From assembly GCA_002503055.1 (NCBI GenBank), contig DAQX01000008.1, positions 459 through 64,458 on the forward strand: a DNA stretch of 64,000 nucleotides, in the 5' to 3' direction. Below are positions 2,024 through 50,660 of the stretch, piece after piece. This stretch comes from Euryarchaeota archaeon UBA86. GTDB taxonomy: Archaea; Thermoplasmatota; Poseidoniia; Poseidoniales; Thalassarchaeaceae. Within the stretch, counting starts at the first letter, position 1; each line of letters opens with the position of its first letter. The notes under the pieces were generated by a model, which saw nothing but the letters and a program-made list of their open reading frames with translations, did no database searches and was not told the DNA's origin. The translations under genes and the position numbers were made by a program.

Positions 2024-2977
2024 ATGCGTGGGGCCGTGGGCGCGTCATTGGCAGTGCTGTTATTCACTGCCTCGCTGTCTGGATGTACTGCAGTCACAGA
2101 CGCAATATCAGGCAATGACTCGGTTGATGTTCCCGTCTGGGAAGTCGGAGACTGGTGGCTTTACACCTTTTCTACACCTGAATACACTGATGATACTGCA
2201 CGGCTAGTAGTGGCTTCAGTGAGCGAAGAGGGAGGGACTGCCAATATGCTGGCGATATCCAGTCTAACCGAGGCGCGTAGACATGCTGTGCTCAATCACA
2301 ACCCATTCCTAGGCAGAATTACTCACGAAGATTTGGCAGCATTTGAGAACGGTGTTGCACAGCCTGTCATGGAATTCCCCTTGGAGAAGGGTAATTCATG
2401 GGGATTTATGTTGTTCTCTATTGAGTGGCAGGCATCAGTGATTGATCTATCAGGCGACTATGTAACGATGAGAGCGGACTCCGATGAAGGAGGGAGAATA
2501 GACTACGTCTTTGACAGAAGTGCCAACTTCTTTTCTTCCTTCATCTGGAAGGACTCTGCTGGAATAGAGCAGATGCGAATGATGCTAGCAGACAATGGCG
2601 AGGGACATACCGGTGATGTGTACTTCGTACGCGGAGGTGATCTATACTCAGATACATGGGAGGATACTGGCCCTGATATCGAGATTCGTGACACTTTCTT
2701 TGTCAGTGGACATCCTAGTGATGGAGAGTGGGATGAAATGATTTACTTCCTTGATGCTGAGTGCGGAACCGGTTCATCAAGCATCACATTGACTCTCAGA
2801 GACCATTTCTCCGTCTCGGCTTTAGAGAGAGTTTGGGGCCCAGGAGCCAGCGAATACGGGACTCTTGGAACAATACCTTACCCTTCCGAAGAATATACCT
2901 TAACTGCCACATTCACGGGAGACACCTATCTCAGAATCAGGATAGCGGGTGGGATTACCAGTTCCTGGACTCTCTAG
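2024..2977 (+). CDS. Hypothetical secreted lipoprotein
   Basis: 317-aa ORF with an N-terminal signal peptide and a lipobox-like LSGC. I recognise no family motif. Confidence 0.5.
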   Translation: MRGAVGASLAVLLFTASLSGCTAVTDAISGNDSVDVPVWEVGDWWLYTFSTPEYTDDTARLVVASVSEEGGTANMLAISSLTEARRHAVLNHNPFLGRITHEDLAAFENGVAQPVMEFPLEKGNSWGFMLFSIEWQASVIDLSGDYVTMRADSDEGGRIDYVFDRSANFFSSFIWKDSAGIEQMRMMLADNGEGHTGDVYFVRGGDLYSDTWEDTGPDIEIRDTFFVSGHPSDGEWDEMIYFLDAECGTGSSSITLTLRDHFSVSALERVWGPGASEYGTLGTIPYPSEEYTLTATFTGDTYLRIRIAGGITSSWTL

Positions 2978-3279
2978 AGGTACTCTAGCAAGTGATCGGA
3001 CCCGCCAACAAAGATTGGCTCATCACCTCTAAGGTCGAATAACACAGGCACGGTTCTGTGTCTTGTCTCTACTACCACTTGCTCCCTGAGTCCATCATAG
3101 AGATCGAGATTGACTTCTGTGTAAGTTAAACCGTGCGCTTCTAGGGTTCTTTCAGCCCTAGTACAATAGGGGCAGATTGTCTGAGAAAAGAATAGGAAGT
3201 CCGTATCTGCGGACTCGAGATGCTCACGCACCTGAGACAACTGGCTCCTCCTCCTCGTCGTCGCCGGACCACCATGCAC
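2974..3279 (-). CDS. Glutaredoxin-like thiol-disulfide oxidoreductase
   Basis: CPYC active site inside FFSQTICPYCTRAERTLE, followed by TVPVLF and the FVGGSDHLLEYL C-terminus typical of Grx. The listed GTG start (3279) overlaps the 3' end of the upstream gene by 56 nt. An in-frame GTG at 3231 would give only an 8-nt overlap. Confidence 0.8.
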   Translation of the reverse strand: MHGGPATTRRRSQLSQVREHLESADTDFLFFSQTICPYCTRAERTLEAHGLTYTEVNLDLYDGLREQVVVETRHRTVPVLFDLRGDEPIFVGGSDHLLEYL

Positions 3280-6200
3280 TCTCGCCTAGGTCGCCATCGA
3301 ACTCTTCCTCATCATCTCCAAAGCGCCCCTCGAGGACTCTGTCGACCTCGTCTGGGTCAATGAACCAGAGTAGTATCACTGTGAATAGAGTCAGGGCAGC
3401 ACCGATGTAGAGGCAGGTGATGTAATCGAACCTCTGAGTCATTGTACCTGTGAATAGATAGGCCATAATTGCGGAGAGGTTGAACATCGACATGTATGCT
3501 GTAAACTGAGAGCCTCCGGCCTTGGAGAAAGTTAGTCTCATGGCCACTGCGATGACGCATATCCACGCTACTCCATTGATGATGGCCCGAATACAAAGAT
3601 AAGTGACCATTAGATTGGTGTTAGTCCAGTAGTCGCTAATCAGAGCAAGAGTTGCGTTTGATAAGGCAAGCAAGGTGAAGCCAATCATCGAAATTTCTCT
3701 AACTCCGAATTTATCTCCTAGCATACCTCCTACAATCTGCCCAAACATCATGAAAGCGATTACTATGCCTCCCATGATGCCGTTATACTTGGTCTGAGAC
3801 CATCCTGCCTCGTTGATGAATATGTCAACAACAATCGGGTCTGTGAAGAGATACAGTTCAGATAGCAGACAGAGGAAGATCAGTATGAATGAAGAGCGTG
3901 TTGAGAATCCCTTCACGATGTTGTAAGCAGTTTGTGAGGCAAGCGCGGAAGCCGGAGCAGGATTGCGAATAGACGGGATGTTTGCTCCAAGCCATTCGGC
4001 AAACATTAGCAGTATCGAAAGCAGAAGTCCCCATCCTCCAATTGACTTCAATGGAGCGGCAATGTCTCCGAATGTTAGAGCCCAGTCACCGGTGTAAGTA
4101 TTGGTCAACTGGTGGATGATAGCGAATGCTCCCCAAAGCAGAAGTGAACCGATACTGAGCCACAAAATCAGCGCTACAGGGGAGATCCTATTCTCGTAGA
4201 GATTAGTAGCAACCCAGCGAGCCTGTGTGAATTCTTCGGGATGGTCGGCTTCCCAAGGCAGAACCTCTTCGGCTTCGATAATTTCCTCTTCAACTGGTTG
4301 AGAGTCGTCGGCACGGTCAGACTTCTTGCTCCATGGGAACAGACTGTTACTTGGCCTCTCACGTAGGAAGAGGGGGACCAGCATAATCAGTACCAGTAGT
4401 GGCAATTGGACCATGATTGCAGACTTGATTCCATACGGGACAACTAGCATCCCAAGTACTGCACCTCCGAAAATAACTCCTCCTCGCTTGGAAGCGAACA
4501 TCAGTCCATTGACCGTCGCAACCTCATCTGGCTCAAGAATATCCACGGCCAGAGCGTCTACGCTAACATCCTGTAATGATGAGAATAGGTTGTGGATAAA
4601 CAATAGAATTGTAGCAAGTTGAAGAGAAGCAACTAGGTCAGGTACCATCAATAAGGCTGCAAGAGAAATTATCATTCCAGTCTCTGCGAACAGTACCCAA
4701 GGTCTTCTAACTCCATACTTAGGGAAAGTGACCATGTCAATTACAGGTCCCCAAATGAACTTGAATGTCCAAGGCAGGTAGACAGTAGCGAACAGTAAGG
4801 CAATCTGCTCGACCTCTACACCATTGGTTACAAGGAAAGCTACGAATGCTACATTGGCGAAACCAGAAGGAAGGCCCTGTGCGACATAGAGGATACACAG
4901 AGCAATAGTTCTCGATGCCTTGTTCTCGGTTAGTGCCTCTCCGTTACGGAGACCGCGTATGAAAGAGCCAAATGTTCTGAAGAATCCTATTATTCCTGCA
5001 ATAACGACCGTTTGGAAAAGGACCACGATAGGGTTCCCATCAGTAGGTTTGATTTCTGTTGACTTGTCGATATCTTCTCTCACCGATTTTCTCACTGCGG
5101 TCAAGAACTTCCTGTCCCACCTCTCGGTTGTCATGATGAATCCTAGCAATGCTAATGCTAGAGCGAATGGAATGAAGAATATCCAAGACCCAATAGAAGT
5201 GAGTCCTTCAATTCCTCCTGAAGCCGATTGCCCATCAATCAAGATCACTCTTCGAGCATCAATCGGAGAGATGCTATCTTCTGAGATAACAAGTCTGGCA
5301 TAGACTGTTGAATTGCCAGACTCAGCGTGAGGGTCGAGTTTCACTCTCCAGTTTGCCCAGTCGCCATTCTTCGACAAATCCGCGGCGCCCTTCCATTCAC
5401 CTCCGCCGACCTTTACCTCGACAATACCCATTCCCGGGGCGCCGCCTGAAGCTGTTCCTGAGATGTAGCTCTCATTGCCGACTTCCTGTAGTGTCTCTAT
5501 GTCCATAGTGACATTGAGTGAGCGGTCTATACTACCTGCTGCCTCTACGAAAGCCACGGGGTCGGCTTGCCCATATCCAAACTCGTTATCGGGGCGGGTC
5601 TCGAGGAGACTGCAATCATTTAAGCCGGGATCATCTAGTAGTACGATTTCCCTTTCTATAGAGTGTGCAGCTATGATATCCTTGAACTCAGTTGGTGTGA
5701 TGTCTGGATTTGCCTGAACCATCAGTGCCGCTATGCCTGCCATAAGAGGAGTGGCCATACTGGTCCCTGACTTACTCGTGTAGCCGTCCTGAGTAGCAGC
5801 GTCGGGCGCCATAATGCTGGAACCTATGGTAGCAACATCCGGCTTGACTCGCATATCAGATGTGTAACCACGACTGCTGTAGATGGCCAGACCGAGATCC
5901 TTGTCTAGACTTGCAACGGTGACAGGTAACCTAGCATCGCCGGGGCTGTCGATTGTATTGCATCCGGCGAATGTTGCACCTCCAAACTCGTTGCCAGCAG
6001 ATAGCGTTGTGATGATTCCAGCCTCGACAACCATGTCCATCTGACGACTCCAAGCAGAGTTGCCATCGTTATCGAAGTGAATCTCAAACTGCTGCTCTCC
6101 GAGTGAAGAAGTCACGATGTCTATGTTGTGAACATCCTTGTTGTCAATAGCCCACTGGGCACCTTGCATGACATCCTCTATGTCGCCATCACAACAGGCT

Positions 6201-7081
6201 AGGATGTTGATTAACCAAGCCCCCGGGGCCGCTCCAACATACCTTAGTCCAGTGGTTGGGTCAGTCTGGCCGCCACCACTACCGGCTGCAATTCCCGCAA
6301 CATGGGTGCCGTGTGTTCCAGAATCGAATGATTCTGAGGGATCGTGTTCTTCATCGGTAAAGACTGCATCATAGAATGCGATAACCTTGGGGTCACAATC
6401 TGCAGGAATTGGTTGTGGATTAGGATCCAGAGGATCCGGAGGGTCATCAATGCAAGTGAATGGATCATCATCCATGTCATTGAGTCCTTCGTGGTCGCCT
6501 CGAACTCCTGTGTCAAGGATTGCAATTACAGAACCGGTACCGTCGAGACCGAGGTCTTGCCAAACTGCATCGACTCCCATGTTAGGGACTGCTTCGTGCA
6601 TATTTGGCTCAGCAAGACCTAGGTCTTCGACCATCACTACTCCAGGAAGTGAGCGGATAGCATTTGGATCCAGAATAGAGCTGAACGGGGCTGTGGCTGA
6701 GATTGTGTCAAGGTAAGTGAAACGGAAGGTTACCTCTACTCCCAATTCCTCCAGTGCTGCGATGTCAGCATCCGTCGGATGGTGATTGTAATCAACGAAG
6801 ATTCTTGCACTTCCGTGGGGAGCTCTCTTCCACCAGTCTTGCTGTATCTCGGCGGGTTGTTCAAGTAGCCACTCAAGCCTGTCGTCTAGCTCATTTCCAT
6901 CTTTATCACGACTCCAATAGAGCCACCAGTTAGGATGTACATCATGCTCAACAGAGGCTATCCAATTTCCATCGGCATCGAATCCTCCGGCCTCTCTCTC
7001 AGAGACGATTGTAGACGAAGCAAGAGGGATTAGGAATAACAGCGCGATTGCTGTTGCCAGTGCTGCTCGGCGTCCTACCAT
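3224..7081 (-). CDS. Fusion protein: secreted subtilisin-like S8 serine protease (N-terminal ~628 aa) + TM linker + MFS-type permease (AmpG/Acatn-like), with an acidic C-terminal tail
   Basis: Signal peptide and an I9-like propeptide region. S8 triad motifs AILDTGV (Asp190), HGTHVAGIAAG (His257) and SGTSMATPLMAGIAAL (Ser441). From about residue 630 there are many hydrophobic helices with MFS-like segments (LCILYVAQGLPSGFANVAFVAFL, GGMLGDKFGVRE). It is one uninterrupted 1285-codon ORF. Confidence 0.85.
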   Translation of the reverse strand: MVGRRAALATAIALLFLIPLASSTIVSEREAGGFDADGNWIASVEHDVHPNWWLYWSRDKDGNELDDRLEWLLEQPAEIQQDWWKRAPHGSARIFVDYNHHPTDADIAALEELGVEVTFRFTYLDTISATAPFSSILDPNAIRSLPGVVMVEDLGLAEPNMHEAVPNMGVDAVWQDLGLDGTGSVIAILDTGVRGDHEGLNDMDDDPFTCIDDPPDPLDPNPQPIPADCDPKVIAFYDAVFTDEEHDPSESFDSGTHGTHVAGIAAGSGGGQTDPTTGLRYVGAAPGAWLINILACCDGDIEDVMQGAQWAIDNKDVHNIDIVTSSLGEQQFEIHFDNDGNSAWSRQMDMVVEAGIITTLSAGNEFGGATFAGCNTIDSPGDARLPVTVASLDKDLGLAIYSSRGYTSDMRVKPDVATIGSSIMAPDAATQDGYTSKSGTSMATPLMAGIAALMVQANPDITPTEFKDIIAAHSIEREIVLLDDPGLNDCSLLETRPDNEFGYGQADPVAFVEAAGSIDRSLNVTMDIETLQEVGNESYISGTASGGAPGMGIVEVKVGGGEWKGAADLSKNGDWANWRVKLDPHAESGNSTVYARLVISEDSISPIDARRVILIDGQSASGGIEGLTSIGSWIFFIPFALALALLGFIMTTERWDRKFLTAVRKSVREDIDKSTEIKPTDGNPIVVLFQTVVIAGIIGFFRTFGSFIRGLRNGEALTENKASRTIALCILYVAQGLPSGFANVAFVAFLVTNGVEVEQIALLFATVYLPWTFKFIWGPVIDMVTFPKYGVRRPWVLFAETGMIISLAALLMVPDLVASLQLATILLFIHNLFSSLQDVSVDALAVDILEPDEVATVNGLMFASKRGGVIFGGAVLGMLVVPYGIKSAIMVQLPLLVLIMLVPLFLRERPSNSLFPWSKKSDRADDSQPVEEEIIEAEEVLPWEADHPEEFTQARWVATNLYENRISPVALILWLSIGSLLLWGAFAIIHQLTNTYTGDWALTFGDIAAPLKSIGGWGLLLSILLMFAEWLGANIPSIRNPAPASALASQTAYNIVKGFSTRSSFILIFLCLLSELYLFTDPIVVDIFINEAGWSQTKYNGIMGGIVIAFMMFGQIVGGMLGDKFGVREISMIGFTLLALSNATLALISDYWTNTNLMVTYLCIRAIINGVAWICVIAVAMRLTFSKAGGSQFTAYMSMFNLSAIMAYLFTGTMTQRFDYITCLYIGAALTLFTVILLWFIDPDEVDRVLEGRFGDDEEEFDGDLGESAWWSGDDEEEEPVVSGA

Positions 7082-15468: not shown

Positions 15469-18342
15469 GTGCTTGTGCGAGATATCATGCGTAGAGGAGT
15501 TTGGCAGTGCCCTCGGTGTAGCATCCACCAGATTTGGAAAGCAAAGGCAGGAACAGAGAGACTCGACAGGAGTTGCGAACATTGTGAGAAGAGGATTAGG
15601 GTAAAGCTTGACCGATCATCCTCTGGTCAAGGCAGAAGAAGGAGTGTTCGCATCTGGGAAAGAGGAGTGGGTGTGAGTGATTCTGAACTTCAGCAGGAAG
15701 TAGATAGGAGAAATTCTGCTGCATATACTTCTGAGCACACCCCCTCCGAGATATCTACAGATGTCACTTCACAATCCACTCTACCGAAAATATGGGGAAT
15801 AGGGTGGCAGCCAGATAGTGCCCTCGAATTCTCAAATCCTCTAAAGTCAGAGACTGCGCGGATTGAGTTTCTGAGATTCTTTGCTGAGAGGCATGATGGT
15901 CATTTGGAAGTGGCCTTGAGCATATGGGATGATTGTGAGCCACCTAATACATTTGATGGAGATTCATTTCATGCGTTCTCGTCAGATTTGATTACTGCGC
16001 TCAAGGAGACTCTGCATGATCGATTGATGACTCCCTCTCTAAGTACTGTGTATTCAGACGAAGTTATGCCAATGAGAACAGGGGAATTACATATAGAACG
16101 GCGTACTGCAAGACTGTTGATCGATATTACACTGTGTTTGAGAAGGATGGCTCATTACTCTTCAATTACACTTGATCAGCGACTAGAATGGCAGAGGATG
16201 ATGACGAGGACTAGAGTTGTTGATGAACATCTCAAAGAGTTGTTCTCTGAGGGACTCAAGACTCCCGATGGAGGTAGTTTCACCGGTAAGGGATTCCGAT
16301 CAACCTGGCAAGAAGGAATAGTTGCTTGTGCTTCAGCACTGCGACGAGCTGTCGATTTTTCCGATGATGTTGAGAGTGCAGATGTCGTAGCTCCTATGAT
16401 TCGAGATGTCGGGCTTGCAATAGCAATGGGTCAGACCCCTACCGAGGTATTTGCAGCCCAAATGGGCAAATCAGGATCATACATGGATGGGGGCCATGAT
16501 TCAGCCGGCGGAAGGGACTTACATATCGGCAATTGGGATAAAAGAGTACTTCCTCCTACTGCTCCTCTACCAATTGCAAGTGCGACTACTACAGGAGTTG
16601 CATTGGCTGCATCAAGACTTGGAGTCGATAGGTTCCATCTGGCTCCTGTCGGCGAGGGATGCAGTAGCAGCGGAGAATTTTGGGAAGCAATGAACCTCGC
16701 CGGGACTAGAGGGTTACCTATGGCGTTCATGATTCAAAATAACCAGATTGCTCTCGACACATATGTCATTGGCCAATCAGGAGCTGAGACCTTTGGAGAC
16801 AAAGGGCATGCTATGGGCATACCTTCGTGGACAATTGATGGTTCAGATCCCGGACTATTCTACGCCTCAACCGCGACTGCTAGAGAGTTCGCTTCAGGGG
16901 GCGGGGGTTCGACACTGATTCATGTCGAAACTATGCGAGGATGTGGTCACGCGCACCACCATGATGATCTCTATCTCGGCGCTTCATCTGGAAATCCTCC
17001 TGGATATGTAGATCGTGGACTACTGAGCTACTGGTCTGATAAGGATCCACTTCCAAACCATCGAGAACTACTGGTTCATCTTGGTTGTGATGAGTCTGTT
17101 CTGGAGCAGATGGAAGTCGAGGAGAACGCCCTAGCAGATGCGTCTAGGGAGGAGATGGAGAATATGCCGTGGCCTGAAGGTAATTCGGTTACCAAAGGGA
17201 TCACCAGTCTACATGATGCCAGTAGCCACTCGGAACAGTTCAGTAGATTCAGTGAGTCTCGAGAACCCATGGACGCCCCATTACCTCCTGGAGATGTTTC
17301 TCTGGAGTTCTCAGATGCTGCTAACTCGTCCAGTTATAGCCGGGCGATTCAGAATGCTATGGCATCAATCGCTGATGAGAGCGGTGACAGCGTCGTATTC
17401 ATGGGCGAGGACATGGAAGTGGCTGGAGCATTTGGAATGAATCTGCCACTCAAGGCCAAAGGTCATTCAGATAAGTTGCTAGACATGCCTCTTTCAGAGG
17501 CAGCCATCATCCATTCTGCGACCGGGGCCGCTCTTGGCGGCATGAGGCCGGTGGCAGAGATTCAATTCGGAGGATTTGCTGCTCTAGCCATGAATGCACT
17601 AATCAACAACGCCGCGCAACTGCGGTGGCGTTGGGGTGCTGATGTCCCCCTGACAGTACGAATTCCGCTTGGAGGGAAGACGCGTAGCGGCCCCTATCAT
17701 GCAAACATGATTGAATCGTGGTTCCTAAATGATCCTGGTTTGGTGATGGTGTTCCCGAGTACTCCTCAAGATGCCTACGATCTGCTGGTAGAGGCCCATG
17801 CTCTAGACGACCCGGTAATCTATCTGGAGCACATTGGACTGTATGGCCTGAGAGGAGGTTTGACTGGTTGGGGGGATTCAATCAGTCAGGTGGTCGATCG
17901 AGAATCTGTCCATGAACGAATTGCTAGAGGAGAGAGCTCAATTGGCAAGGCAGGGGTTGTTAGAGGAGGTAAAGACATTACAATCGTAACTTGGGGAGCT
18001 ATGGTGCATGTAGCCCTCAAAGCGGCTGCTGAGGTTTCAAAGAAGGGTGTTGAGGCCGAAGTTGTCGATCTCCGGACCATTGCTCCATTCGATGCTCAGA
18101 CATGTATAGACTCAGTGTTGCGGACTGGCAGACTGCTTGTACTGCAGGAGGCCCAGTGGACCGGAGGATTAGGCAATACAGTGAGTAGTAGAATTCTTGA
18201 GGAGGCTTTCTGGTGCCTTGAGGCACCTCCAACAGTAGTAGGAGCCCTAGACACTCCTGTACCCTTCTCCCCCACCCTTGAGGACCATACCATGCCCACG
18301 GCTGATTTGGTCATTCGACATATTGAGAGAATGTGCTTGTGA
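15469..18342 (+). CDS. Fused TPP-dependent 2-oxoacid dehydrogenase E1 alpha + beta components with ~230-aa N-terminal extension carrying a CxxC...CxxC zinc-ribbon
   Basis: The alpha part has a TPP motif GEG...NN (GEGCSSSGEFWEAMNLAGTRGLPMAFMIQNNQIAL). The beta part has FMGEDMEVAGAFG, PLSEAAIIHSATGAALGGMRP and FPSTPQDAYDLL. The N-terminus carries CPRCS...CEHCE. The listed start is GTG 15469; ATG 15487 is the likely start. Confidence 0.8.
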   Translation: MLVRDIMRRGVWQCPRCSIHQIWKAKAGTERLDRSCEHCEKRIRVKLDRSSSGQGRRRSVRIWERGVGVSDSELQQEVDRRNSAAYTSEHTPSEISTDVTSQSTLPKIWGIGWQPDSALEFSNPLKSETARIEFLRFFAERHDGHLEVALSIWDDCEPPNTFDGDSFHAFSSDLITALKETLHDRLMTPSLSTVYSDEVMPMRTGELHIERRTARLLIDITLCLRRMAHYSSITLDQRLEWQRMMTRTRVVDEHLKELFSEGLKTPDGGSFTGKGFRSTWQEGIVACASALRRAVDFSDDVESADVVAPMIRDVGLAIAMGQTPTEVFAAQMGKSGSYMDGGHDSAGGRDLHIGNWDKRVLPPTAPLPIASATTTGVALAASRLGVDRFHLAPVGEGCSSSGEFWEAMNLAGTRGLPMAFMIQNNQIALDTYVIGQSGAETFGDKGHAMGIPSWTIDGSDPGLFYASTATAREFASGGGGSTLIHVETMRGCGHAHHHDDLYLGASSGNPPGYVDRGLLSYWSDKDPLPNHRELLVHLGCDESVLEQMEVEENALADASREEMENMPWPEGNSVTKGITSLHDASSHSEQFSRFSESREPMDAPLPPGDVSLEFSDAANSSSYSRAIQNAMASIADESGDSVVFMGEDMEVAGAFGMNLPLKAKGHSDKLLDMPLSEAAIIHSATGAALGGMRPVAEIQFGGFAALAMNALINNAAQLRWRWGADVPLTVRIPLGGKTRSGPYHANMIESWFLNDPGLVMVFPSTPQDAYDLLVEAHALDDPVIYLEHIGLYGLRGGLTGWGDSISQVVDRESVHERIARGESSIGKAGVVRGGKDITIVTWGAMVHVALKAAAEVSKKGVEAEVVDLRTIAPFDAQTCIDSVLRTGRLLVLQEAQWTGGLGNTVSSRILEEAFWCLEAPPTVVGALDTPVPFSPTLEDHTMPTADLVIRHIERMCL

Positions 18343-20520: not shown

Positions 20521-20583
20521 ATTCAGCCCATAGGGCTGAGTCATGTGACCGTTTGCTTGAAATTAGCCCATCCATGCCCGGAG

Positions 20584-22602
20584 ATGGTTATCATGCGAGC
20601 ATCACAGGATATGCGAAGCCGATTGACGGCAATTGCAATACTGGGGATGATGATTGTACCTGCATTAGCAGCAGCCGTTCCGACTGCCTCCAGCCCTACT
20701 CCAGTACTCACTTATTCGGAACAGATTGGCGATTGGTGGGAAGATACCAGCATGGATCGTGATGGCGATTACATTCATGATGCAATTTGGATTGCTGCAC
20801 AAAACAATCACTACGAATATCTCGATGATGATGGAAGGATTTCGGTAATCGTTGATTTCGATCATAAGCCAACTGAGGCCGACCAATCCATGCTTGAATT
20901 GGAGGTTGGCTTTCAAACACAATTCAGGTACTGGCTGATTGATTCGATTGCGGGGTCTGTCGAGTTAGCTCGTATACACGAACTACTCGAGTTACCAGGT
21001 GTAGTATTCGTCGAATTGGATGGTATTCTGGAGATTCGGATGGAAGATGTAGTTCCGGCTCACGGAGTGGATTTGGTCTGGCAAGATACTGGATATACCG
21101 GCGCTGGAGTAACAATGGCCATCATTGACACCGGCATAGATGCCAATCATTCGGGTTTGGACGATCTAGATGACGATAACAGCACAAATGACACTAAGGT
21201 CATCGCATTCTATGATGCAATCAACAATCCGGGAGCCAGAAACGGTAGTGAAATCTTCCCTTACGATGACAATGGACATGGAACTCATTGTGCTGGAATT
21301 ACTGCAGGAACTGGGGCACCTACATTCCAACACATTGGTGTTGCACCACATGCCAATTTAGTTGGTGTGAAAGTTCTGAGTGGAAGTGGAAGTGGCTCTT
21401 TTGCACAAGTTATGGCAGGCATGGAATGGACCGTGGAAAAGAGGCATGAGTTCAATATCAGGGCTGCCAGTATGAGTCTTGGAGGCCCTGGGGCAATTGA
21501 GTGGACTTCCGCAGAAGAAGAGTCTGTCAATAGAATGGCAAATGAAATGATGAGGGCAGGTGTGGCTCTTTTCATAGCAGCAGGAAATAGCGCCGGAACT
21601 GCAACTATCGGCACACCCGGTAGTGCTGAAGATGTGATTACAGTAGGTGCATTGGATAAGGATACGGCAATTGCAGTATACTCCAGTCAAGGGCCTACTG
21701 AAGAAGGCCGTATCAAGCCAAATCTGGCTTTTGTTGGAAGTAGTGTCAATGCTCCAGATGCAAATACCGGGGATGGATATGTAGCGCTGTCAGGAACGAG
21801 TATGGCTACTCCGGGTGCAGCTGGTGTTGGTGTATTGATGTTTCAAGCCAATCCGGATCTCAGTCCGTTTGATGTAAGGAACATAATGCAGGAGACTTCC
21901 ACCTACAGACAGTGCCACTACATGTTCGCCAACGAGCCTTGTGCCGAGGACCTGATACCTAAGAATCGTCAGAACAATGTGTACGGGCACGGGCATGTTA
22001 ACGCTCAGCCCGCAGTTGAAGAGGCGGCCAACTACTACTACGAACTCAGTCTTGCTCTCAATATCACTTTACAGAGTGAATATGGAGACGACAATCGTGT
22101 CTATATCAATCAAGATGATTCTGTTGTATTCAATCTAGAAGGTGGCATACAAAGAGTACAATGGAGAACTTGGGATATGCGAGATAACTGGATGGACTTA
22201 GCTGATTTCTCTGTTGGTGAAGAAACTTTCGAGGTCACACACGGATTACTAGTAGATCGTCTTCGCTTCTTACCAAACAATACGGTCGAAGGTGAACAAG
22301 TAATCCTAGTTCGCGGTATTGCTGGTGATGAAGCATCGACTAACCTTGCCGTTGGAATCTACATAATGGGAGATGAGAAAATCGCTCAATCGGATTCTGG
22401 AGGTTCGCTCATGGGGATTATCGTAGGCGTACTCACTTTACTTGTTCTAGTACTACTAGTTACATTGGTATTCGCTGGAATGCAATTACGCGACCGAGGA
22501 TTTTTCGATGGTGATGATGTGCTGGAAGATGAGGACGACTCAATGCCGCTCGATGACATGCTGGTGGGCGGAGGAGACGAGGTCGTTCCGGATGGGGACT
22601 AA
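20584..22602 (+). CDS. Secreted subtilisin-like S8 serine protease with C-terminal TM anchor and acidic tail
   Basis: AIIDTGIDANHSGL (Asp), HGTHCAGITAG (His), SGTSMATPGAAGVGVL (Ser). A C-terminal TM helix (IIVGVLTLLVLVLLVTLVFAG) is followed by a Asp/Glu-rich tail. The N-terminal half is paralogous to 3224..7081. Start is uncertain: ORF-track GTG 20545, ATG 20584 or ATG 20611. Confidence 0.88.
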   Translation: MVIMRASQDMRSRLTAIAILGMMIVPALAAAVPTASSPTPVLTYSEQIGDWWEDTSMDRDGDYIHDAIWIAAQNNHYEYLDDDGRISVIVDFDHKPTEADQSMLELEVGFQTQFRYWLIDSIAGSVELARIHELLELPGVVFVELDGILEIRMEDVVPAHGVDLVWQDTGYTGAGVTMAIIDTGIDANHSGLDDLDDDNSTNDTKVIAFYDAINNPGARNGSEIFPYDDNGHGTHCAGITAGTGAPTFQHIGVAPHANLVGVKVLSGSGSGSFAQVMAGMEWTVEKRHEFNIRAASMSLGGPGAIEWTSAEEESVNRMANEMMRAGVALFIAAGNSAGTATIGTPGSAEDVITVGALDKDTAIAVYSSQGPTEEGRIKPNLAFVGSSVNAPDANTGDGYVALSGTSMATPGAAGVGVLMFQANPDLSPFDVRNIMQETSTYRQCHYMFANEPCAEDLIPKNRQNNVYGHGHVNAQPAVEEAANYYYELSLALNITLQSEYGDDNRVYINQDDSVVFNLEGGIQRVQWRTWDMRDNWMDLADFSVGEETFEVTHGLLVDRLRFLPNNTVEGEQVILVRGIAGDEASTNLAVGIYIMGDEKIAQSDSGGSLMGIIVGVLTLLVLVLLVTLVFAGMQLRDRGFFDGDDVLEDEDDSMPLDDMLVGGGDEVVPDGD

Positions 22603-48140: not shown

Positions 48141-50660
48141 TCAGTCACGACGAGTCGCGAATGCTGCACCAAGTAGTACAGTCAATGCCATCAGTGCGCC
48201 GAAGCCGGGTAGAGCTGGTGGGTTTGCTAGTGAGTCAGATGAATACTCGGATGCCCAAGTGTCATACATTTCCATTCTAGTTTGGCCATCCCATCCTTCG
48301 AGAGTTAGCATATCGCCCGGCGAAACTAATCCATCGCCGTCAAGATCGGTGTAAGTGTGAGTTACTCCATTAGCTTCTCCTCCAGCTAGTGGGATGCTGA
48401 ATTCAACTGTACATTCATTCAGATCTGGTTCAACCATCTCGCCCGTTTCTTCGTCGTATTCCTCATGACAGTCGCTAAGGAAGCGAGTCTCGAAGTCGGA
48501 AATTGGTGCGTTAAGAGTCTGGTTCTTGGCAATATATCCAATGAGTATCGCAGGCATTTCTTGCTGATTATCATCGTCCCCATCGTCAAACTCGTCAGAG
48601 CCGTCCTCGCAGTCCTCCTCTCCATCATTGACCCAGTCCATCGGGATCTCGTCGCCGTTGTCGCATGTGAACCACTCTTCGCCATCATCATCGTCAGCAC
48701 AGCAATCATTCCAGGCGTCTTGGAACTCGTCCCAATCCAATCCCCCGCTATCATCGTAATCGTACATACCAATGAAGACAGAGAGGCCTTCGAAGTCTTC
48801 TTCTGACATCTCTTCGCCAGTTGAATTGACAAAAGCGGCCCACTCAGAGGGTGTGACATGTTCGTCCATGTCTTCAAGCCAGCCGTCGATGAGATGGAAT
48901 GCACACTCTGCATCACATTCGCCACCGCCATCAGGCAACATGTCCACAATGCCATCGATGAAGCACTGCATCTCGTCGATGTCGATTAGGTCGCTTCCAT
49001 CGTAGTCGCAATCATCGAACAGGATTGAGACCTCGTCGTAATCCAGTTCGGGGTTTGTTGGATCGGAATCCCAGGAATCCTGGAACTCTTGGAAACTCAT
49101 GTATCCATCGTCATTCGCATCTACAGATTCCATAGCCTCTTCTGGAGTTGGGGCGCCATCGCCATCATCGTCTGAACCTGACCACTCGTCCCAGTCCGCA
49201 GAGTGCTCGAATTCCTCGCTCTGTCCGAAGTCGTCAGTGCAGTGCCAGTCTGAGTCATGGTGCTCGCAGTAATACCACCATGTGCCCCAGTACTCATCGT
49301 CCTGAGATTCCTTACACCACCAAACAGTATCATCACCATCTGGGTTGCCTTCCCATTCGCAGTAGCCGTCATAATAGTCCGCCCAACCAATATCATCGCC
49401 GCCATCGTCGTCATCATCGAACATCTCAGAATCTACCCACATGAATGTGGTGCATTCCTCCTCGGACATTCCCTCTATCTGAGCATGGGTGTGAGTATTG
49501 TAGCAACCTGTGAATGGCTCCCCATTAGGGTCATGCTGAGATGTGTAGTTCTCTAGATACATCCACGAGTAGCAAGTGTCCTGGTCCGCATCTGTGATGT
49601 AATCTCCGTAGGAATTCCAGCAGACCATCTCTGGTTCTGGTTCATCGGAGCCGTCGCCGCAGTCGTCCCATCCATCGTCAACATAGTCCATCGGGATCTC
49701 ATTGCCGTTGTCGCAGTAGAATGTATCATCTTCGTCGGCGTCATCATCACCCCATGATTCGATATCGACCCAGACAGGTATAGATGTCTTTGGCAGAGTC
49801 TCATCGACCTCTATGACTACAGCATCTCCCCACATCATCTGGTACTCGATGTTCGTAGTTGCAGAGCCATTGTCGCTGGCCATATTGAAGGACATCAAGT
49901 CCTCATTCTGATTAATGTGAATGGTCATAGTGATTTCAGCGCCATCTTCGGTATACTCCATTGTCATAGTCTGAGATTCCATATCGTCGCTCATAGTGAT
50001 TGTAATTACTGCGTCTTCTGGGATTTCATCCACATCTGAATCTGGCGTTTCGACTAGCATCCCTTCGTCCCCTTCTTCGCCAGAGAAAAGACCGACCTGA
50101 TCTGCGAGTACTTCCAAAACATTGGGGGTTGCGTCTCGGGTCTGGTAAGATTCGGATTCGCCTCCTTCTGCTATCATTCCGCCTGCTGTGTAATGGATAT
50201 TGACCACCTCTCCAATCTGAGCATGGGTGTATGACATGGTCATCAAAGGCGCTATCGAGATGAAGTTATGCACATGCACAGCATCATTATCGAGATCGGC
50301 CATTACTGTCTCGATAATCATGACATCCATCTGCATACCCAATTCATCATTCCATTCGTTCACATTCATCGACTGAGAATATCCAGCCTTGGGAGTGTCC
50401 TCTAGCATCTCTTCGATAGTTCTGACATCGGACATGGCATCCATGAAAGTATCCATGGTGGCCATATAGATGCAGTCGCCGACCAACTCAGAGGTAGCAT
50501 TCTCTTCGTAGTTGGCAGCATTCTCATCCATACATCCGATGATGTCGTCGACTAGTTCCTCCAGATCGTCACCAGAAAGGCAACCAGCAAGAGGTGCGGC
50601 AATCAAAATTAAGCATGCAAACAAAGCATGTGCTCGTGTCATTGCACCGGGCGTCTTCAC
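48141..50660 (-). CDS. Extremely acidic secreted lipoprotein with LDL-receptor-class-A-like repeats, EF-hand-like loops and PGF-CTERM archaeal sorting signal
   Basis: Signal peptide plus lipobox LAGC. Two repeats: F(Y/T)CDNG(N/D)EIPMD(Y/W)V(D/N)DG..DC.DGSDE. Calcium-loop-like DANDDGYMSFQE, DYDDSGGLDWDE and DLDGDGLVSPGD. C-terminal PALPGFGALMALTVLLGAAFATRRD. Confidence 0.8.
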   Translation of the reverse strand: MKTPGAMTRAHALFACLILIAAPLAGCLSGDDLEELVDDIIGCMDENAANYEENATSELVGDCIYMATMDTFMDAMSDVRTIEEMLEDTPKAGYSQSMNVNEWNDELGMQMDVMIIETVMADLDNDAVHVHNFISIAPLMTMSYTHAQIGEVVNIHYTAGGMIAEGGESESYQTRDATPNVLEVLADQVGLFSGEEGDEGMLVETPDSDVDEIPEDAVITITMSDDMESQTMTMEYTEDGAEITMTIHINQNEDLMSFNMASDNGSATTNIEYQMMWGDAVVIEVDETLPKTSIPVWVDIESWGDDDADEDDTFYCDNGNEIPMDYVDDGWDDCGDGSDEPEPEMVCWNSYGDYITDADQDTCYSWMYLENYTSQHDPNGEPFTGCYNTHTHAQIEGMSEEECTTFMWVDSEMFDDDDDGGDDIGWADYYDGYCEWEGNPDGDDTVWWCKESQDDEYWGTWWYYCEHHDSDWHCTDDFGQSEEFEHSADWDEWSGSDDDGDGAPTPEEAMESVDANDDGYMSFQEFQDSWDSDPTNPELDYDEVSILFDDCDYDGSDLIDIDEMQCFIDGIVDMLPDGGGECDAECAFHLIDGWLEDMDEHVTPSEWAAFVNSTGEEMSEEDFEGLSVFIGMYDYDDSGGLDWDEFQDAWNDCCADDDDGEEWFTCDNGDEIPMDWVNDGEEDCEDGSDEFDDGDDDNQQEMPAILIGYIAKNQTLNAPISDFETRFLSDCHEEYDEETGEMVEPDLNECTVEFSIPLAGGEANGVTHTYTDLDGDGLVSPGDMLTLEGWDGQTRMEMYDTWASEYSSDSLANPPALPGFGALMALTVLLGAAFATRRD

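What the first reader, a model, noticed from the sequence alone, without database searches (positions are those of the whole stretch)
3224..7081. Extracellular subtilase covalently fused to an MFS permease
One 1285-codon ORF joins four parts: a signal peptide, propeptide and S8 catalytic domain (Asp190/His257/Ser441); a beta-rich domain of about 100 aa; a TM helix (about residues 630-652); and a polytopic MFS-like permease with an acidic cytoplasmic tail. The topology is coherent: protease outside, then one TM, then the MFS N-terminus inside. A paralogue at 20584..22602 has the same ectodomain architecture but ends after the single TM anchor. This argues that the fusion is a genuine evolutionary event rather than a missed stop codon. 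Physical coupling of extracellular proteolysis to a peptide or amino-acid permease would suit a protein-degrading planktonic heterotroph. I do not know of it as a characterised architecture.
Basis: partly seen in the sequence, partly recalled or inferred. Interest (0 to 1): 0.7.

Follow-up and report, generated by a model that had tools for sequence, protein, structure and literature searches.

The report
Surface protease fused to membrane importer
Abundant ocean archaea (Marine Group II/III) make one long protein in which an active protein-cutting enzyme on the cell surface is joined to a membrane transporter, a design that has apparently not been described and could let the cell take up the products of digestion before they drift away.

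Summary
A 1285-codon ORF (window 3224..7081, minus strand) encodes a signal peptide, an I9-like propeptide, an S8 subtilase (Asp190/His257/Asn364/Ser441), a β-sandwich domain, a short Ser/Gly stalk, one conserved TM anchor, a variable cytoplasmic linker, and a 14-helix AmpG/PAT-type MFS permease with an acidic tail. It is not a missed stop. The uninterrupted fusion is in 36 species-level genomes of MGIIb (Thalassarchaeaceae) and in a 47%-identical Marine Group III cluster. Catalytic and transporter signature residues are invariant, and dN/dS is about 0.003-0.035 in both halves.

New here:
- The permease belongs to an archaeal clade whose sampled members all carry an ectodomain plus the anchor.
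- At the same syntenic locus, other MGII lineages carry an intact M28 metallopeptidase or an unknown β-domain instead of S8. A blue-copper variant also exists; its locus was not examined.
- A close free S8+TM relative nests among the fused forms.
- The in-window paralogue is a different S8 clade, not the donor.

The permease keeps AmpG's Lys/Asp cavity signature but replaces essential Tyr152 with Lys, and it falls below the AmpG cut-offs. The substrate is therefore unknown. Coupled surface proteolysis and peptide import is the best-supported inference, not a shown function. No paper describing the architecture was found.

The parts
7004..7081 (-). Signal peptide / N-terminal hydrophobic segment (residues 1-26; n-region MVGRR, h-region 8-26)
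   Evidence: Hydropathy peak 2.22 at residues 8-26. The same kind of N-terminus is present in homologues.
6587..7003 (-). Pro-region (residues 27-165) with an I9-like beta-alpha-beta-beta-alpha-beta fold at about 91-153
   Evidence: AF2 secondary structure. Foldseek top hit is ProN-Tk-SP 3afg, 601 aligned columns. Pfam Inhibitor_I9 was not detected. dN/dS is 0.04 against L001.
5567..6586 (-). S8 subtilase catalytic domain (residues 166-505): Asp190, His257, Asn364, Ser441. It contains a 22-aa Cys-bracketed Pro/Asp-rich insert at 207-231.
   Evidence: Pfam PF00082 E 1e-42. PDB Tk-SP E 1e-32. Catalytic residues invariant 37/37. dN/dS 0.003-0.013. The insert is shared only with MGIIb fused forms and P0122.
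5192..5566 (-). Beta-sandwich domain (strands at 523-615) plus a 12-16-residue Ser/Gly-rich stalk (residues 506-630)
   Evidence: Seven strands in the AF2 model. Weak CBM_6 hit, E 0.049. Tk-SP has the same domain order. Stalk alignment.
5126..5191 (-). TM-A, the conserved single membrane anchor (residues 631-652, FFIPF motif, followed by ERWDRKF)
   Evidence: Hydropathy 2.31. AF2 helix at 632-652. The motif is shared with the M28, cupredoxin and unknown-domain variants.
4919..5125 (-). Variable cytoplasmic linker (residues 653-721), including the non-conserved hydrophobic helix 'TM-B' at 683-708
   Evidence: Conservation 0.07-0.42. Length 18-80 aa, hydrophobic only in the window protein, L018 and L021, and partly in L004. 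dN/dS 0.2-0.43.
4337..4918 (-). MFS N-bundle, TM1-6 (residues 722-915), with motif A (D782, R792, R793) and the AmpG-type cavity signature K774, D838, D842, D847
   Evidence: Pfam MFS_1 and Acatn. TIGR00901. AmpG PDB hits E 4e-12. Residue mapping to E. coli AmpG. Invariant 37/37, D847 36/37. dN/dS 0-0.023.
3926..4336 (-). Central insert (residues 916-1052): an acidic disordered loop plus two extra membrane helices (about 968-993 and 1004-1030)
   Evidence: Hydropathy. AF2 helices. Present at 100-171 aa in all S8 forms and in P0124. Only 9-45 aa in the M28, cupredoxin and other archaeal variants and in the other relatives sampled.
3341..3925 (-). MFS C-bundle, TM7-12 (residues 1053-1247)
   Evidence: TIGR00901 alignment extends to residue 1240. 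AF2 helices. dN/dS 0.013-0.035.
3227..3340 (-). Acidic cytoplasmic tail (residues 1248-1285); stop codon at 3224-3226
   Evidence: 16 D/E against 2 K/R. A similar tail is present in homologues.
2974..3279 (-). Glutaredoxin gene immediately downstream on the same strand. The ORF as listed overlaps the 3' end of the fusion gene. It is a conserved neighbour.
   Evidence: Pfam Glutaredoxin E 1e-11. Conserved next to the gene in L024, L048, L051, L079 and L094.
20584..22602 (+). Paralogous TM-anchored S8 subtilase without a permease (the ORF can also start at GTG 20545)
   Evidence: 35% identity over residues 51-540. It falls in a different S8 clade in the tree.

Best explanation
The gene encodes one polypeptide that is both a cell-surface protease and a secondary transporter.

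Shown:
- The domain order is a Sec-type signal peptide, an I9-like propeptide, an intact S8 subtilase of the Tk-SP type, a beta-sandwich domain, a 12-16-residue stalk, one conserved TM anchor, a poorly conserved cytoplasmic linker (18-80 aa), and a 14-helix MFS of the AmpG/PAT branch with an acidic tail.
- The fusion is old (MGIIb plus MGIII), and both halves are under strong purifying selection.
- The permease clade always carries an ectodomain. Other lineages carry an intact M28 metallopeptidase in the same gene at the same locus.

Inferred:
- After export and autocatalytic removal of the propeptide, the mature subtilase stays tethered a few nanometres above the outward-facing mouth of its own permease.
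- It cuts dissolved or particulate protein at the cell surface.
- The products (oligopeptides or peptide conjugates) are taken up at once by proton-coupled symport. This limits diffusive loss in dilute seawater.
- The two extra helices in the central loop may widen or flank the cavity for bulky substrates, as proposed for the helical insertion of AmpG.
For: Architecture.

The fusion is real and widespread:
- More than 120 full-length clusters from four sources.
- 36 uninterrupted ORFs in species-level genomes, nearly all labelled Poseidoniales, Thalassarchaeaceae or Ca. Thalassarchaeum.
- An MGIII cluster at 47% identity.

Both halves are functional:
- Triad, oxyanion Asn, motif A and cavity Lys/Asp are invariant 37/37.
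- dN/dS is 0.003-0.035 in S8 and both MFS bundles, against 0.2-0.43 in the linker.

Coupling:
- A second, unrelated peptidase (M28, all metal-ligand motifs intact) is fused to the orthologous permease in the same H+-PPase / p317 / glutaredoxin / GHMP-kinase neighbourhood.
- The stalk is only 12-16 residues and the cytoplasmic linker can be 18 residues, so the protease cannot be far from the permease.
- The S8 and MFS trees are congruent for MGIII and MGIIb, which fits one ancient fusion kept since.
- The central two-helix insert tracks the S8-type subclade. It resembles the internal helical insertion of some AmpG orthologues, which is proposed to extend the cavity for large substrates (PMC11568325).

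Ecology: MGII are described as protein/peptide-degrading photoheterotrophs with S8 and M28 as extracellular peptidases (PMC6864105).
Against: - No transport or protease assay exists, so the substrate is unknown.
- The permease is not a member of a known peptide-transporter family. There is no PTR2/POT hit.
- It is below the curated cut-offs for AmpG (118 against 350 bits, and 53 against 756 for the equivalog).
- AmpG's essential Tyr152 is Lys here.
- Sister variants carry ectodomains that are not peptidases: a plastocyanin-like domain with a complete type-1 copper site, and unknown beta domains. The permease may therefore carry something unrelated to proteolysis.
- Gene contexts of the stand-alone relatives examined gave no substrate clue.
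- I could not read model coordinates, so the distance and orientation between Ser441 and the cavity are unmeasured. pTM is only 0.54.
- The extra hydrophobic helix at 683-708 in this particular protein is unexplained.
Confidence: 0.5

Rival explanations
1. Co-localisation without substrate channelling. The permease transports a solute unrelated to proteolysis, and it is the same solute whichever ectodomain is attached. A type-I (N-out, C-in) anchored exoprotein is topologically compatible with the N-in start of an MFS, so fusions to this permease are tolerated and kept for anchoring, stoichiometry or co-expression only.
For: - The ectodomain is modular. S8, M28, a plastocyanin-like domain with intact copper ligands, and two unknown beta domains all sit on the same permease clade.
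- Other relatives outside this archaeal clade carry C-terminal FG-GAP or 3-keto-disaccharide-hydrolase-like domains.
- The S8+TM module also exists free (P0122).
- The linker is poorly conserved.
- The nearest characterised relatives carry muropeptides, acetyl-CoA, siderophores or folate/biopterin, not plain peptides.
Against: - The fusion has been kept across MGIIb and MGIII with no split gene in about 50 genomes.
- Two of the recognisable ectodomains are peptidases with intact active sites.
- Every sampled archaeal member of the clade has an ectodomain, which suggests the ectodomain is needed and not incidental.
- TM-A is conserved across ectodomain types.
- The central insert co-varies with ectodomain type.
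Confidence: 0.27
2. Envelope turnover and recycling, by analogy with AmpG. The tethered subtilase trims the cell's own surface (S-layer or other glycoproteins), and the AmpG-like permease re-imports the released glycopeptides.
For: - AmpG is the closest solved relative.
- AmpG's cavity Lys62/Asp125/Asp129/Asp134 signature is conserved.
- AmpG's role is recycling of cell-wall fragments (PMC11568325).
- The locus is a conserved housekeeping-type neighbourhood, not a nutrient-regulated island.
Against: - AmpG's disaccharide-contacting Tyr152 is replaced.
- Scores are far below the AmpG cut-offs.
- No envelope-biogenesis genes lie next to it.
- The M28 and cupredoxin variants are hard to fit.
- Nothing is known of MGII envelope turnover.
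Confidence: 0.1
3. Export plus extracellular maturation. The MFS exports a precursor peptide or other metabolite that the tethered subtilase processes outside the cell, as NisP does after NisT. It would be the outside-acting counterpart of peptidase-containing ABC exporters.
For: - MFS proteins include many exporters.
- Surface-anchored S8 leader peptidases exist (my own knowledge of NisP and other LanP proteases).
- Weak NCBIfam hits to PatA/G-type and other processing subtilases.
Against: - No precursor-peptide or modification genes lie in the conserved neighbourhood.
- The closest characterised transporters are importers or organellar importers.
- An M28 aminopeptidase-type domain occupies the same position in other lineages.
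- The S8 domain is most like the broad-specificity Tk-SP.
Confidence: 0.05
4. Artefact: a missed stop codon, a frameshift or a chimeric assembly joins two separate genes.
For: None found. The only S8-only close relative (P0122) is a complete gene at another locus.
Against: - Independent assemblies from ENA, JGI, NCBI, Tara and Logan give the same full-length ORF.
- 36 uninterrupted ORFs at 58-95% identity.
- All truncated hits end at contig ends.
- Purifying selection acts across the junction region, including TM-A.
Confidence: 0.01

Closest known systems
Tk-SP, subtilisin-like serine protease of Thermococcus kodakarensis (PDB 3afg, 9ues)
   Same: Best sequence match (E 1e-32) and best fold match for the ectodomain. 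It has the same order of propeptide, S8 catalytic domain and C-terminal beta-jelly-roll-type domain.
   Different: Tk-SP is a soluble secreted enzyme. Here the beta domain is followed by a stalk, a TM anchor and a whole permease. The MGIIb forms also have a Cys-bracketed Pro/Asp-rich insert between the catalytic Asp and His.
AmpG anhydromuropeptide:H+ symporter (PAT family; PDB 9c3f, 8zgz, 9j9z)
   Same: Closest solved transporter by sequence and by fold. Motif A and the cavity residues Lys62, Asp125, Asp129 and Asp134 are conserved. Both have 14 helices. Some AmpG orthologues also place the two extra helices between the N and C bundles (PMC11568325).
   Different: Scores are far below the curated AmpG cut-offs. 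Essential Tyr152 is Lys. The organism has no murein. AmpG has no ectodomain and no N-terminal anchor. The nearest 12-helix relatives lack the insert, so the insert here may be an independent gain.
SLC33A1 / AT-1 acetyl-CoA transporter and BT1 folate-biopterin transporters (same MFS branch)
   Same: Pfam Acatn hit on TM1-2 (28 bits, cut-off 23.7). PDB AT-1 hits at E 2e-8. Several homologues also hit BT1.
   Different: Only the N-terminal part matches. These are eukaryotic organellar or folate carriers with no protease domain.
Peptidase-containing ABC transporters (PCAT; C39 peptidase fused to an ABC exporter)
   Same: The established example of a protease covalently fused to a transporter, so that cleavage and translocation are coupled (my own knowledge).
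   Different: Different protease family (cysteine C39), different transporter class (primary ABC exporter), a cytoplasmic protease, and export instead of import. No sequence relationship.
Mycosin (MycP) of type VII secretion: a TM-anchored subtilase docked on a translocon
   Same: An S8 protease held at the outer face of the membrane by a C-terminal TM helix next to a transport machine. There are weak NCBIfam hits (59 bits for the fusion, 90 bits for the paralogue).
   Different: Below the cut-off of 279 bits. Mycosin associates non-covalently with a secretion complex. It is not fused to a permease.

Membership tests
Peptidase S8 (subtilase) | Pfam PF00082 above the gathering score | tested here: met
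   146.9 bits against a cut-off of 21.8, full-length profile match 1-288.
Peptidase S8 (subtilase) | Catalytic triad in the order Asp-His-Ser, plus the oxyanion-hole Asn | tested here: met
   D190 (DTG), H257 (HGTH), N364 (AGN) and S441 (GTSMA), invariant in 37/37 full-length sequences.
Peptidase S8 (subtilase) | N-terminal I9-type propeptide (intramolecular chaperone) | tested here: inconclusive
   No Pfam Inhibitor_I9 hit at E<=1. AF2 gives a beta-alpha-beta-beta-alpha-beta unit at about 91-153, and the best Foldseek hit is the propeptide-containing ProN-Tk-SP.
Major facilitator superfamily | Pfam MFS_1 above the gathering score; two six-helix bundles; motif A between TM2 and TM3 | tested here: met
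   97.2 bits against 33.4. 12 core helices plus 2 inserted helices in the hydropathy profile and the AF2 model. D782...R792-R793 are invariant.
AmpG muropeptide permease (TIGR00901 subfamily; NF008238 equivalog) | Score above NCBIfam's curated cut-off | tested here: not met
   TIGR00901 118.4 against 350. NF008238 52.9 against 756. NF008867 67.6 against 656.
AmpG muropeptide permease (TIGR00901 subfamily; NF008238 equivalog) | Cavity residues Lys62, Asp125, Asp129, Asp134 (E. coli numbering, PMC11568325) | tested here: met
   They map to K774, D838, D842 and D847. Conserved in 21/21 archaeal ecto-MFS for the first three and 19/21 (2 Glu) for D847. Among the 37 S8 fusions they are 37/37, D847 36/37.
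AmpG muropeptide permease (TIGR00901 subfamily; NF008238 equivalog) | Tyr152, a binding-pocket residue whose mutation abolishes activity (PMC11568325) | tested here: not met
   It aligns to K865. Lys in 20/21 archaeal members and in 13/20 of the other relatives sampled.
AmpG muropeptide permease (TIGR00901 subfamily; NF008238 equivalog) | Transports GlcNAc-anhydroMurNAc(-peptide) | not testable with these tools
   Needs a transport assay. The host is an archaeon without murein (inference from taxonomy).
POT/PTR2 proton-dependent oligopeptide transporters | Pfam PTR2 (PF00854) match | tested here: not met
   No PTR2 hit at E<=1 in the Pfam scan.
SLC33A1/Acatn acetyl-CoA transporter | Pfam PF13000 over the length of the protein | tested here: inconclusive
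   28.2 bits (cut-off 23.7), but only profile positions 5-86 of 546 are matched.
Mycosin (T7SS-associated subtilase) | TIGR03921 above the cut-off, with ESX genes in the neighbourhood | tested here: not met
   59 bits against 278.75. No ESX-type genes among the neighbours scanned.
Peptidase-containing ABC transporter (PCAT) | C39 peptidase domain plus ABC transporter domains | tested here: not met
   Neither domain is present in the Pfam scan. The comparison is by principle only.

The most novel reading that the evidence does not exclude
Poseidoniia (MGII/MGIII) have a modular class of ectoenzyme-bearing permeases. A conserved AmpG/PAT-type MFS with its own N-terminal anchor helix serves as a platform. 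Different extracellular catalytic or binding domains (S8 endopeptidase, M28 exopeptidase, blue-copper domain, unknown beta domains) have been exchanged on it at one conserved locus. The S8 and M28 forms act as single-polypeptide digest-and-import machines. This would be an archaeal, protein-directed counterpart of 'selfish' polymer uptake, and it would explain how free-living planktonic cells profit from extracellular proteolysis.
Probability: 0.35. Interest if true: 0.85.

Novelty: new variant of a known kind. Interest (0 to 1): 0.68.

Why it matters
MGII archaea are among the most abundant heterotrophs of the surface ocean. They are uncultured and are thought to live on protein and peptides. 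How a free-living cell gets a return on an extracellular protease in dilute water is a long-standing question.

A protease tethered directly to an importer would be a simple physical answer, and it gives a concrete, expressible target for testing. Genome surveys that count 'extracellular S8' and 'MFS transporters' as separate items (for example PMC6864105) miss that in MGIIb one copy of each is the same protein. That affects how 'secreted' peptidase inventories are read.

The ectodomain swapping (S8, M28, unknown domains at one conserved locus, plus a cupredoxin form in the same clade) is also a clean natural experiment in domain-transporter modularity. Finally, it extends the AmpG/PAT branch of the MFS, medically important in bacteria, to a new substrate context. 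The essential Tyr is replaced while the Lys/Asp signature is kept.

Tried and rejected
1. Missed stop, frameshift or chimera: rejected.
2. P0122 as a split version of the fusion: rejected. It is a complete S8+TM gene at another locus with no MFS gene beside it.
3. Two-TM linker (which would invert the MFS): rejected as a conserved feature. 'TM-B' is hydrophobic only in the window protein, L018 and L021, and partly in L004. It is absent or amphipathic elsewhere, and five genomes have an 18-residue linker. Its state in this particular protein remains unexplained.
4. The in-window paralogue as donor of the ectodomain: rejected by the S8 tree.
5. The unknown ectodomain (unkA) as a degenerate S8 or beta domain: no profile-profile similarity (hhalign probability about 0.1%). 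AF2 gives an all-beta domain at only moderate confidence, so I ran no fold search on it.
6. Gene context of stand-alone relatives as a substrate clue: uninformative. P0130, which looked like a stand-alone member inside the archaeal clade, starts 17 nt from a contig end and is probably truncated.
7. Other S8-MFS fusions among long S8 representatives: none. They carry PKD, Ig or CARDB tails.
8. Literature: eight full-text searches and four papers checked found no description of the fusion. The library lacks most subscription-journal papers, so absence is not proof.
9. Peptide ABC transporter genes elsewhere in the window: not found among the ORFs scanned.
10. Geometry of the active site relative to the cavity: not possible, because model coordinates are not exposed.

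Full report
**1. The observation**

The window holds a 1285-codon ORF at 3224..7081 on the minus strand, with an ATG start. Pfam finds Peptidase_S8 at residues 181-504 (E 1e-42) and MFS_1 at 728-1049 plus a second stretch (E 1e-27). There is also an Acatn hit on the first two MFS helices. NCBIfam aligns the AmpG-family model TIGR00901 over residues 723-1240, but at 118 bits against a cut-off of 350.

Hydropathy gives an N-terminal hydrophobic segment (8-26), a long polar acidic stretch (27-633), a strong anchor (634-652), and a polytopic C-terminal half. The protein ends in a tail with 16 D/E and 2 K/R. The paralogue at 20545/20584..22602 is an S8 protease with one TM helix and an acidic tail. 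It is 35% identical over residues 51-540.

**2. Anatomy**

An AlphaFold2 model of residues 50-1249 was built on a 62-sequence alignment (mean pLDDT 81, pTM 0.54). In window numbering it shows:
- a beta-alpha-beta-beta-alpha-beta unit at about 91-153, which is I9-propeptide-like although Pfam Inhibitor_I9 is not detected;
- the subtilase core;
- a seven-strand beta domain at 523-615;
- helix 632-652 (TM-A);
- two linker helices (655-674 and 684-713);
- six MFS helices, then a disordered acidic loop (about 906-941), two extra long helices (968-993 and 1004-1030), then six more MFS helices.

Foldseek against the PDB puts pro-Tk-SP of Thermococcus (3afg: propeptide, S8 and beta-jelly-roll) first. 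AmpG (9j9z, 8zbb) is the best transporter match. No entry covers both halves. Sequence searches of the PDB agree: Tk-SP at E 1e-32 for the ectodomain, and AmpG at E 4e-12 then SLC33A1 at 2e-8 for the permease.

**3. A topology wrinkle**

This protein has a second strongly hydrophobic helix (683-708, Kyte-Doolittle 2.04). Two crossings would invert the MFS.

Comparison resolves most of this. The 653-721 linker is the least conserved part of the protein (0.07-0.42 identity; dN/dS 0.2-0.43). Its length ranges from 18 to 80 residues. It is hydrophobic only in the window protein, L018 and L021, and partly in L004. In the 95%-identical L001/P0001 it is amphipathic. So there is one conserved anchor, followed by the positive ERWDRKF, and the out/one-TM/in topology holds for the family. 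What helix 683-708 does in this subclade is unexplained. An interfacial or re-entrant position is my inference.

**4. Is the fusion real?**

Yes.
- The full-length architecture recurs in the best 120 90%-identity clusters (74-95% identity, 1265-1317 aa for the full-length ones). They come from ENA, JGI, NCBI, Tara and Logan assemblies, and JGI names them 'subtilisin family serine protease/MFS family permease'.
- A scan of one genome per species found it in 50 loci. 36 are uninterrupted ORFs of 1234-1343 aa at 58-95% identity. The rest are cut by contig ends, never by a stop.
- Nearly all are labelled Poseidoniales, Thalassarchaeaceae or Ca. Thalassarchaeum (MGIIb). One 'Neomarinimicrobiota' contig at 84% identity is probably mis-binned.
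- At 50% clustering, the whole 1.8-billion-protein library holds two full-fusion clusters among the best 150 representatives: P0121, and P0123 at 47% identity. The P0123 cluster is labelled Marine Group III / Poseidoniia (UniRef100_A0A7J4GW02, HIF37121.1, RZD34797.1).
- Other long S8 representatives carry PKD, Ig or CARDB tails, not a permease.

**5. Are both halves functional?**

D190, H257, N364 and S441 are invariant in 37/37 sequences. So are the MFS residues K774, D782, R792, R793, D838, D842 and K865; D847 is Asp in 36 and Glu in one. Nei-Gojobori dN/dS against close relatives is:
- 0.003-0.013 for S8;
- 0-0.023 for the N bundle;
- 0.013-0.035 for the C bundle;
- 0.035-0.057 for the beta domain;
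- 0.06-0.15 for the central insert.

**6. What kind of permease?**

I mapped the residues that the AmpG cryo-EM paper names in the binding cavity (PMC11568325) onto E. coli AmpG fetched from MG1655. Lys62, Asp125, Asp129, Asp134 and motif A are conserved. Tyr152, whose mutation abolishes AmpG activity, is Lys in 20 of 21 archaeal members.

Together with the sub-threshold HMM scores, this says the protein is on the AmpG/PAT branch but is not AmpG. There is no POT/PTR2 signal. The closest stand-alone relatives (37-45% identity, 430-475 aa, 12 helices) are in marine Verrucomicrobiota, Planctomycetota and Gammaproteobacteria. The gene contexts of the stand-alone relatives I examined gave no substrate clue.

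The central two-helix insert (100-171 aa) is present in all S8 forms and in P0124. The corresponding loop is only 9-45 aa everywhere else. The AmpG paper reports that some AmpG orthologues have such an internal insertion. It is predicted to form a hydrophobic vestibule at the TM2/TM11 opening and is proposed to give room for large substrates.

**7. The wider family: the main new result**

The permease belongs to an archaeal clade in which every sampled member has a signal peptide, an ectodomain and TM-A ahead of the MFS. The anchor motif is usually FF(I/L)P(F/W)F. The ectodomain differs between members:
- S8 (MGIIb, MGIII).
- Peptidase_M28 (P0128, a 134-member cluster, 844-870 aa). All five metal-ligand motifs are intact: AHHD, DDGTG, YEEW, NLDM, SDHYNF.
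- A plastocyanin-like domain with a complete type-1 copper site, HN...CEPHEAMGM (P0132).
- A Cys-rich all-beta domain of unknown function (P0124, P0125/L051, P0131).
- Another unknown domain (P0129).

The M28 form, the unknown-domain forms and the S8 forms sit in the same neighbourhood: H+-PPase, a conserved ~320-aa lipoprotein-like protein, glutaredoxin, the ecto-MFS gene, and GHMP kinase. This was confirmed by tblastn. The locus of the cupredoxin form was not examined.

In a rough NJ tree of the MFS core, the MGIII S8 form is near the base. The MGIIb S8 forms make one subclade with two unknown-domain variants nested inside it. The M28, cupredoxin and other forms make the sister subclade. The unknown domain shows no similarity to the S8 ectodomain.

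In the S8 tree, the fused MGIIb and MGIII domains are sisters. A complete free S8+TM protein (P0122; 68% identical, at another locus, with no MFS beside it) nests inside the fused MGIIb clade and shares its Cys-bracketed Pro/Asp insert. The window's own paralogue lies in a different S8 clade.

The simplest history, by inference from distance trees, is one old S8-MFS fusion, later ectodomain replacements at the same locus, and at least one release of the S8+TM module.

**8. Mechanism**

The shown facts are the anatomy, the conservation, the intact catalytic sites and the very short tethers. The stalk is 12-16 residues and the cytoplasmic linker can be 18.

The best-supported inference is a tethered digest-and-import device. 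The mature subtilase sits just above its own permease and supplies it with peptides (confidence about 0.5). The independent presence of an intact M28 exopeptidase on the orthologous permease is the strongest comparative argument.

The blue-copper and unknown ectodomains are the strongest counter-argument. They keep alive the rival that the permease carries something unrelated and the fusion only co-localises two surface functions (about 0.27). AmpG-like recycling of the cell's own envelope fragments (about 0.1) and export plus outside maturation (about 0.05) are less likely. An artefact is excluded (about 0.01).

**9. Novelty**

Both modules are known families. MGII papers list S8 and M28 among extracellular peptidases (PMC6864105). 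The papers I checked and eight full-text searches do not mention that one S8 copy, or the M28, is part of a permease. Databases annotate it automatically, as 'MFS transporter' or as the IMG double name.

A protease fused to a transporter is known in another form: the C39-ABC exporters, with the protease inside the cell. An extracellular serine or metallo-peptidase fused to a secondary importer appears uncharacterised. I class it as a new variant of a known kind. It has real ecological interest because of the abundance of the hosts.

Noticed in passing
window 4958-5035 (residues 683-708 of the fusion protein): There is a second strongly hydrophobic 26-30-residue helix between the anchor and MFS TM1. 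It is present only in the window protein, L018 and L021, and partly in L004. If it crossed the membrane it would invert the permease, yet the permease is under strong purifying selection in these same genomes. Its position (interfacial or re-entrant) is unexplained.
   Followed up: partly
L079-L082 (protein P0128) and its 134-member cluster: A Peptidase_M28 ectodomain with all metal-ligand motifs intact is fused through the same type of anchor to the orthologous MFS. It sits in the same H+-PPase / p317 / glutaredoxin / GHMP-kinase neighbourhood as the window's gene. The lineage within MGII was not determined.
   Followed up: partly
protein P0132 and cluster (660 aa): A plastocyanin-like domain with a complete type-1 copper ligand set (His...Cys-x2-His-x4-Met) is fused to the same archaeal MFS clade. 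What a blue-copper domain does on an AmpG-like permease is unknown. Its locus was not examined.
   Followed up: no
L051/L052 (UBA36), L094-L096 (P0124), P0131 (TMED99): The syntenic gene carries a ~200-240-aa Cys-rich all-beta ectodomain of unknown function (motif FWG..ECWN..GYGEIEFPEG) in place of S8. There is no Pfam hit and no similarity to the S8 ectodomain. P0124 keeps the central two-helix insert and L051/P0125 has lost it.
   Followed up: partly
L090-L093 (protein P0122): A free S8+TM protein is 68% identical to the fused ectodomains and shares the Cys-bracketed Pro/Asp insert. It lies at an unrelated locus of about 40% GC, close to the 37% GC of the UBA36 contigs. It could be the released protease of lineages whose permease now carries the unknown domain. 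This was not tested.
   Followed up: partly
window 2974-3279 (minus strand): A glutaredoxin gene lies immediately downstream of the fusion gene on the same strand. The ORF as listed overlaps the fusion gene's last 56 nt, and the true start is probably further in. It is a conserved neighbour in S8, unknown-domain and M28 loci (inverted in the M28 locus). Co-transcription with the fusion gene is possible, and the meaning is unknown.
   Followed up: partly
window 2024-2977 (plus strand): A 317-aa protein with a lipobox-like N-terminus (LSGC) and no Pfam hit is conserved (59-69% identity) between the H+-PPase and the ecto-MFS gene in all locus variants examined.
   Followed up: partly
L013 (NZWI01000049.1, labelled Candidatus Neomarinimicrobiota bacterium NAT51): This contig carries the archaeal fusion gene at 84% identity, cut by the contig end, in a bin labelled as a bacterium. 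It is most likely a mis-binned MGIIb contig.
   Followed up: no
window 48141-50660 (minus strand): An 839-aa protein has weak EF-hand pair and LDL-receptor class A hits, an unusual pair for an archaeon. Next to it are an FtsX-like permease, an ABC ATPase and a 692-aa protein with a small-multidrug-export domain.
   Followed up: no
window 15469-18342 (plus strand): A 957-aa single polypeptide combines E1_dh, Transket_pyr and Transketolase_C (fused alpha and beta subunits of a 2-oxoacid dehydrogenase E1) behind an N-terminal extension of about 300 aa with no domain hit.
   Followed up: no
proteins P0148 and P0243 (relatives of the permease outside the archaeal clade): Relatives of the same MFS branch carry C-terminal extracytoplasmic-type domains (3-keto-disaccharide hydrolase-like; FG-GAP repeats). 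Fusion to outside-facing domains may be a general habit of this MFS branch.
   Followed up: no
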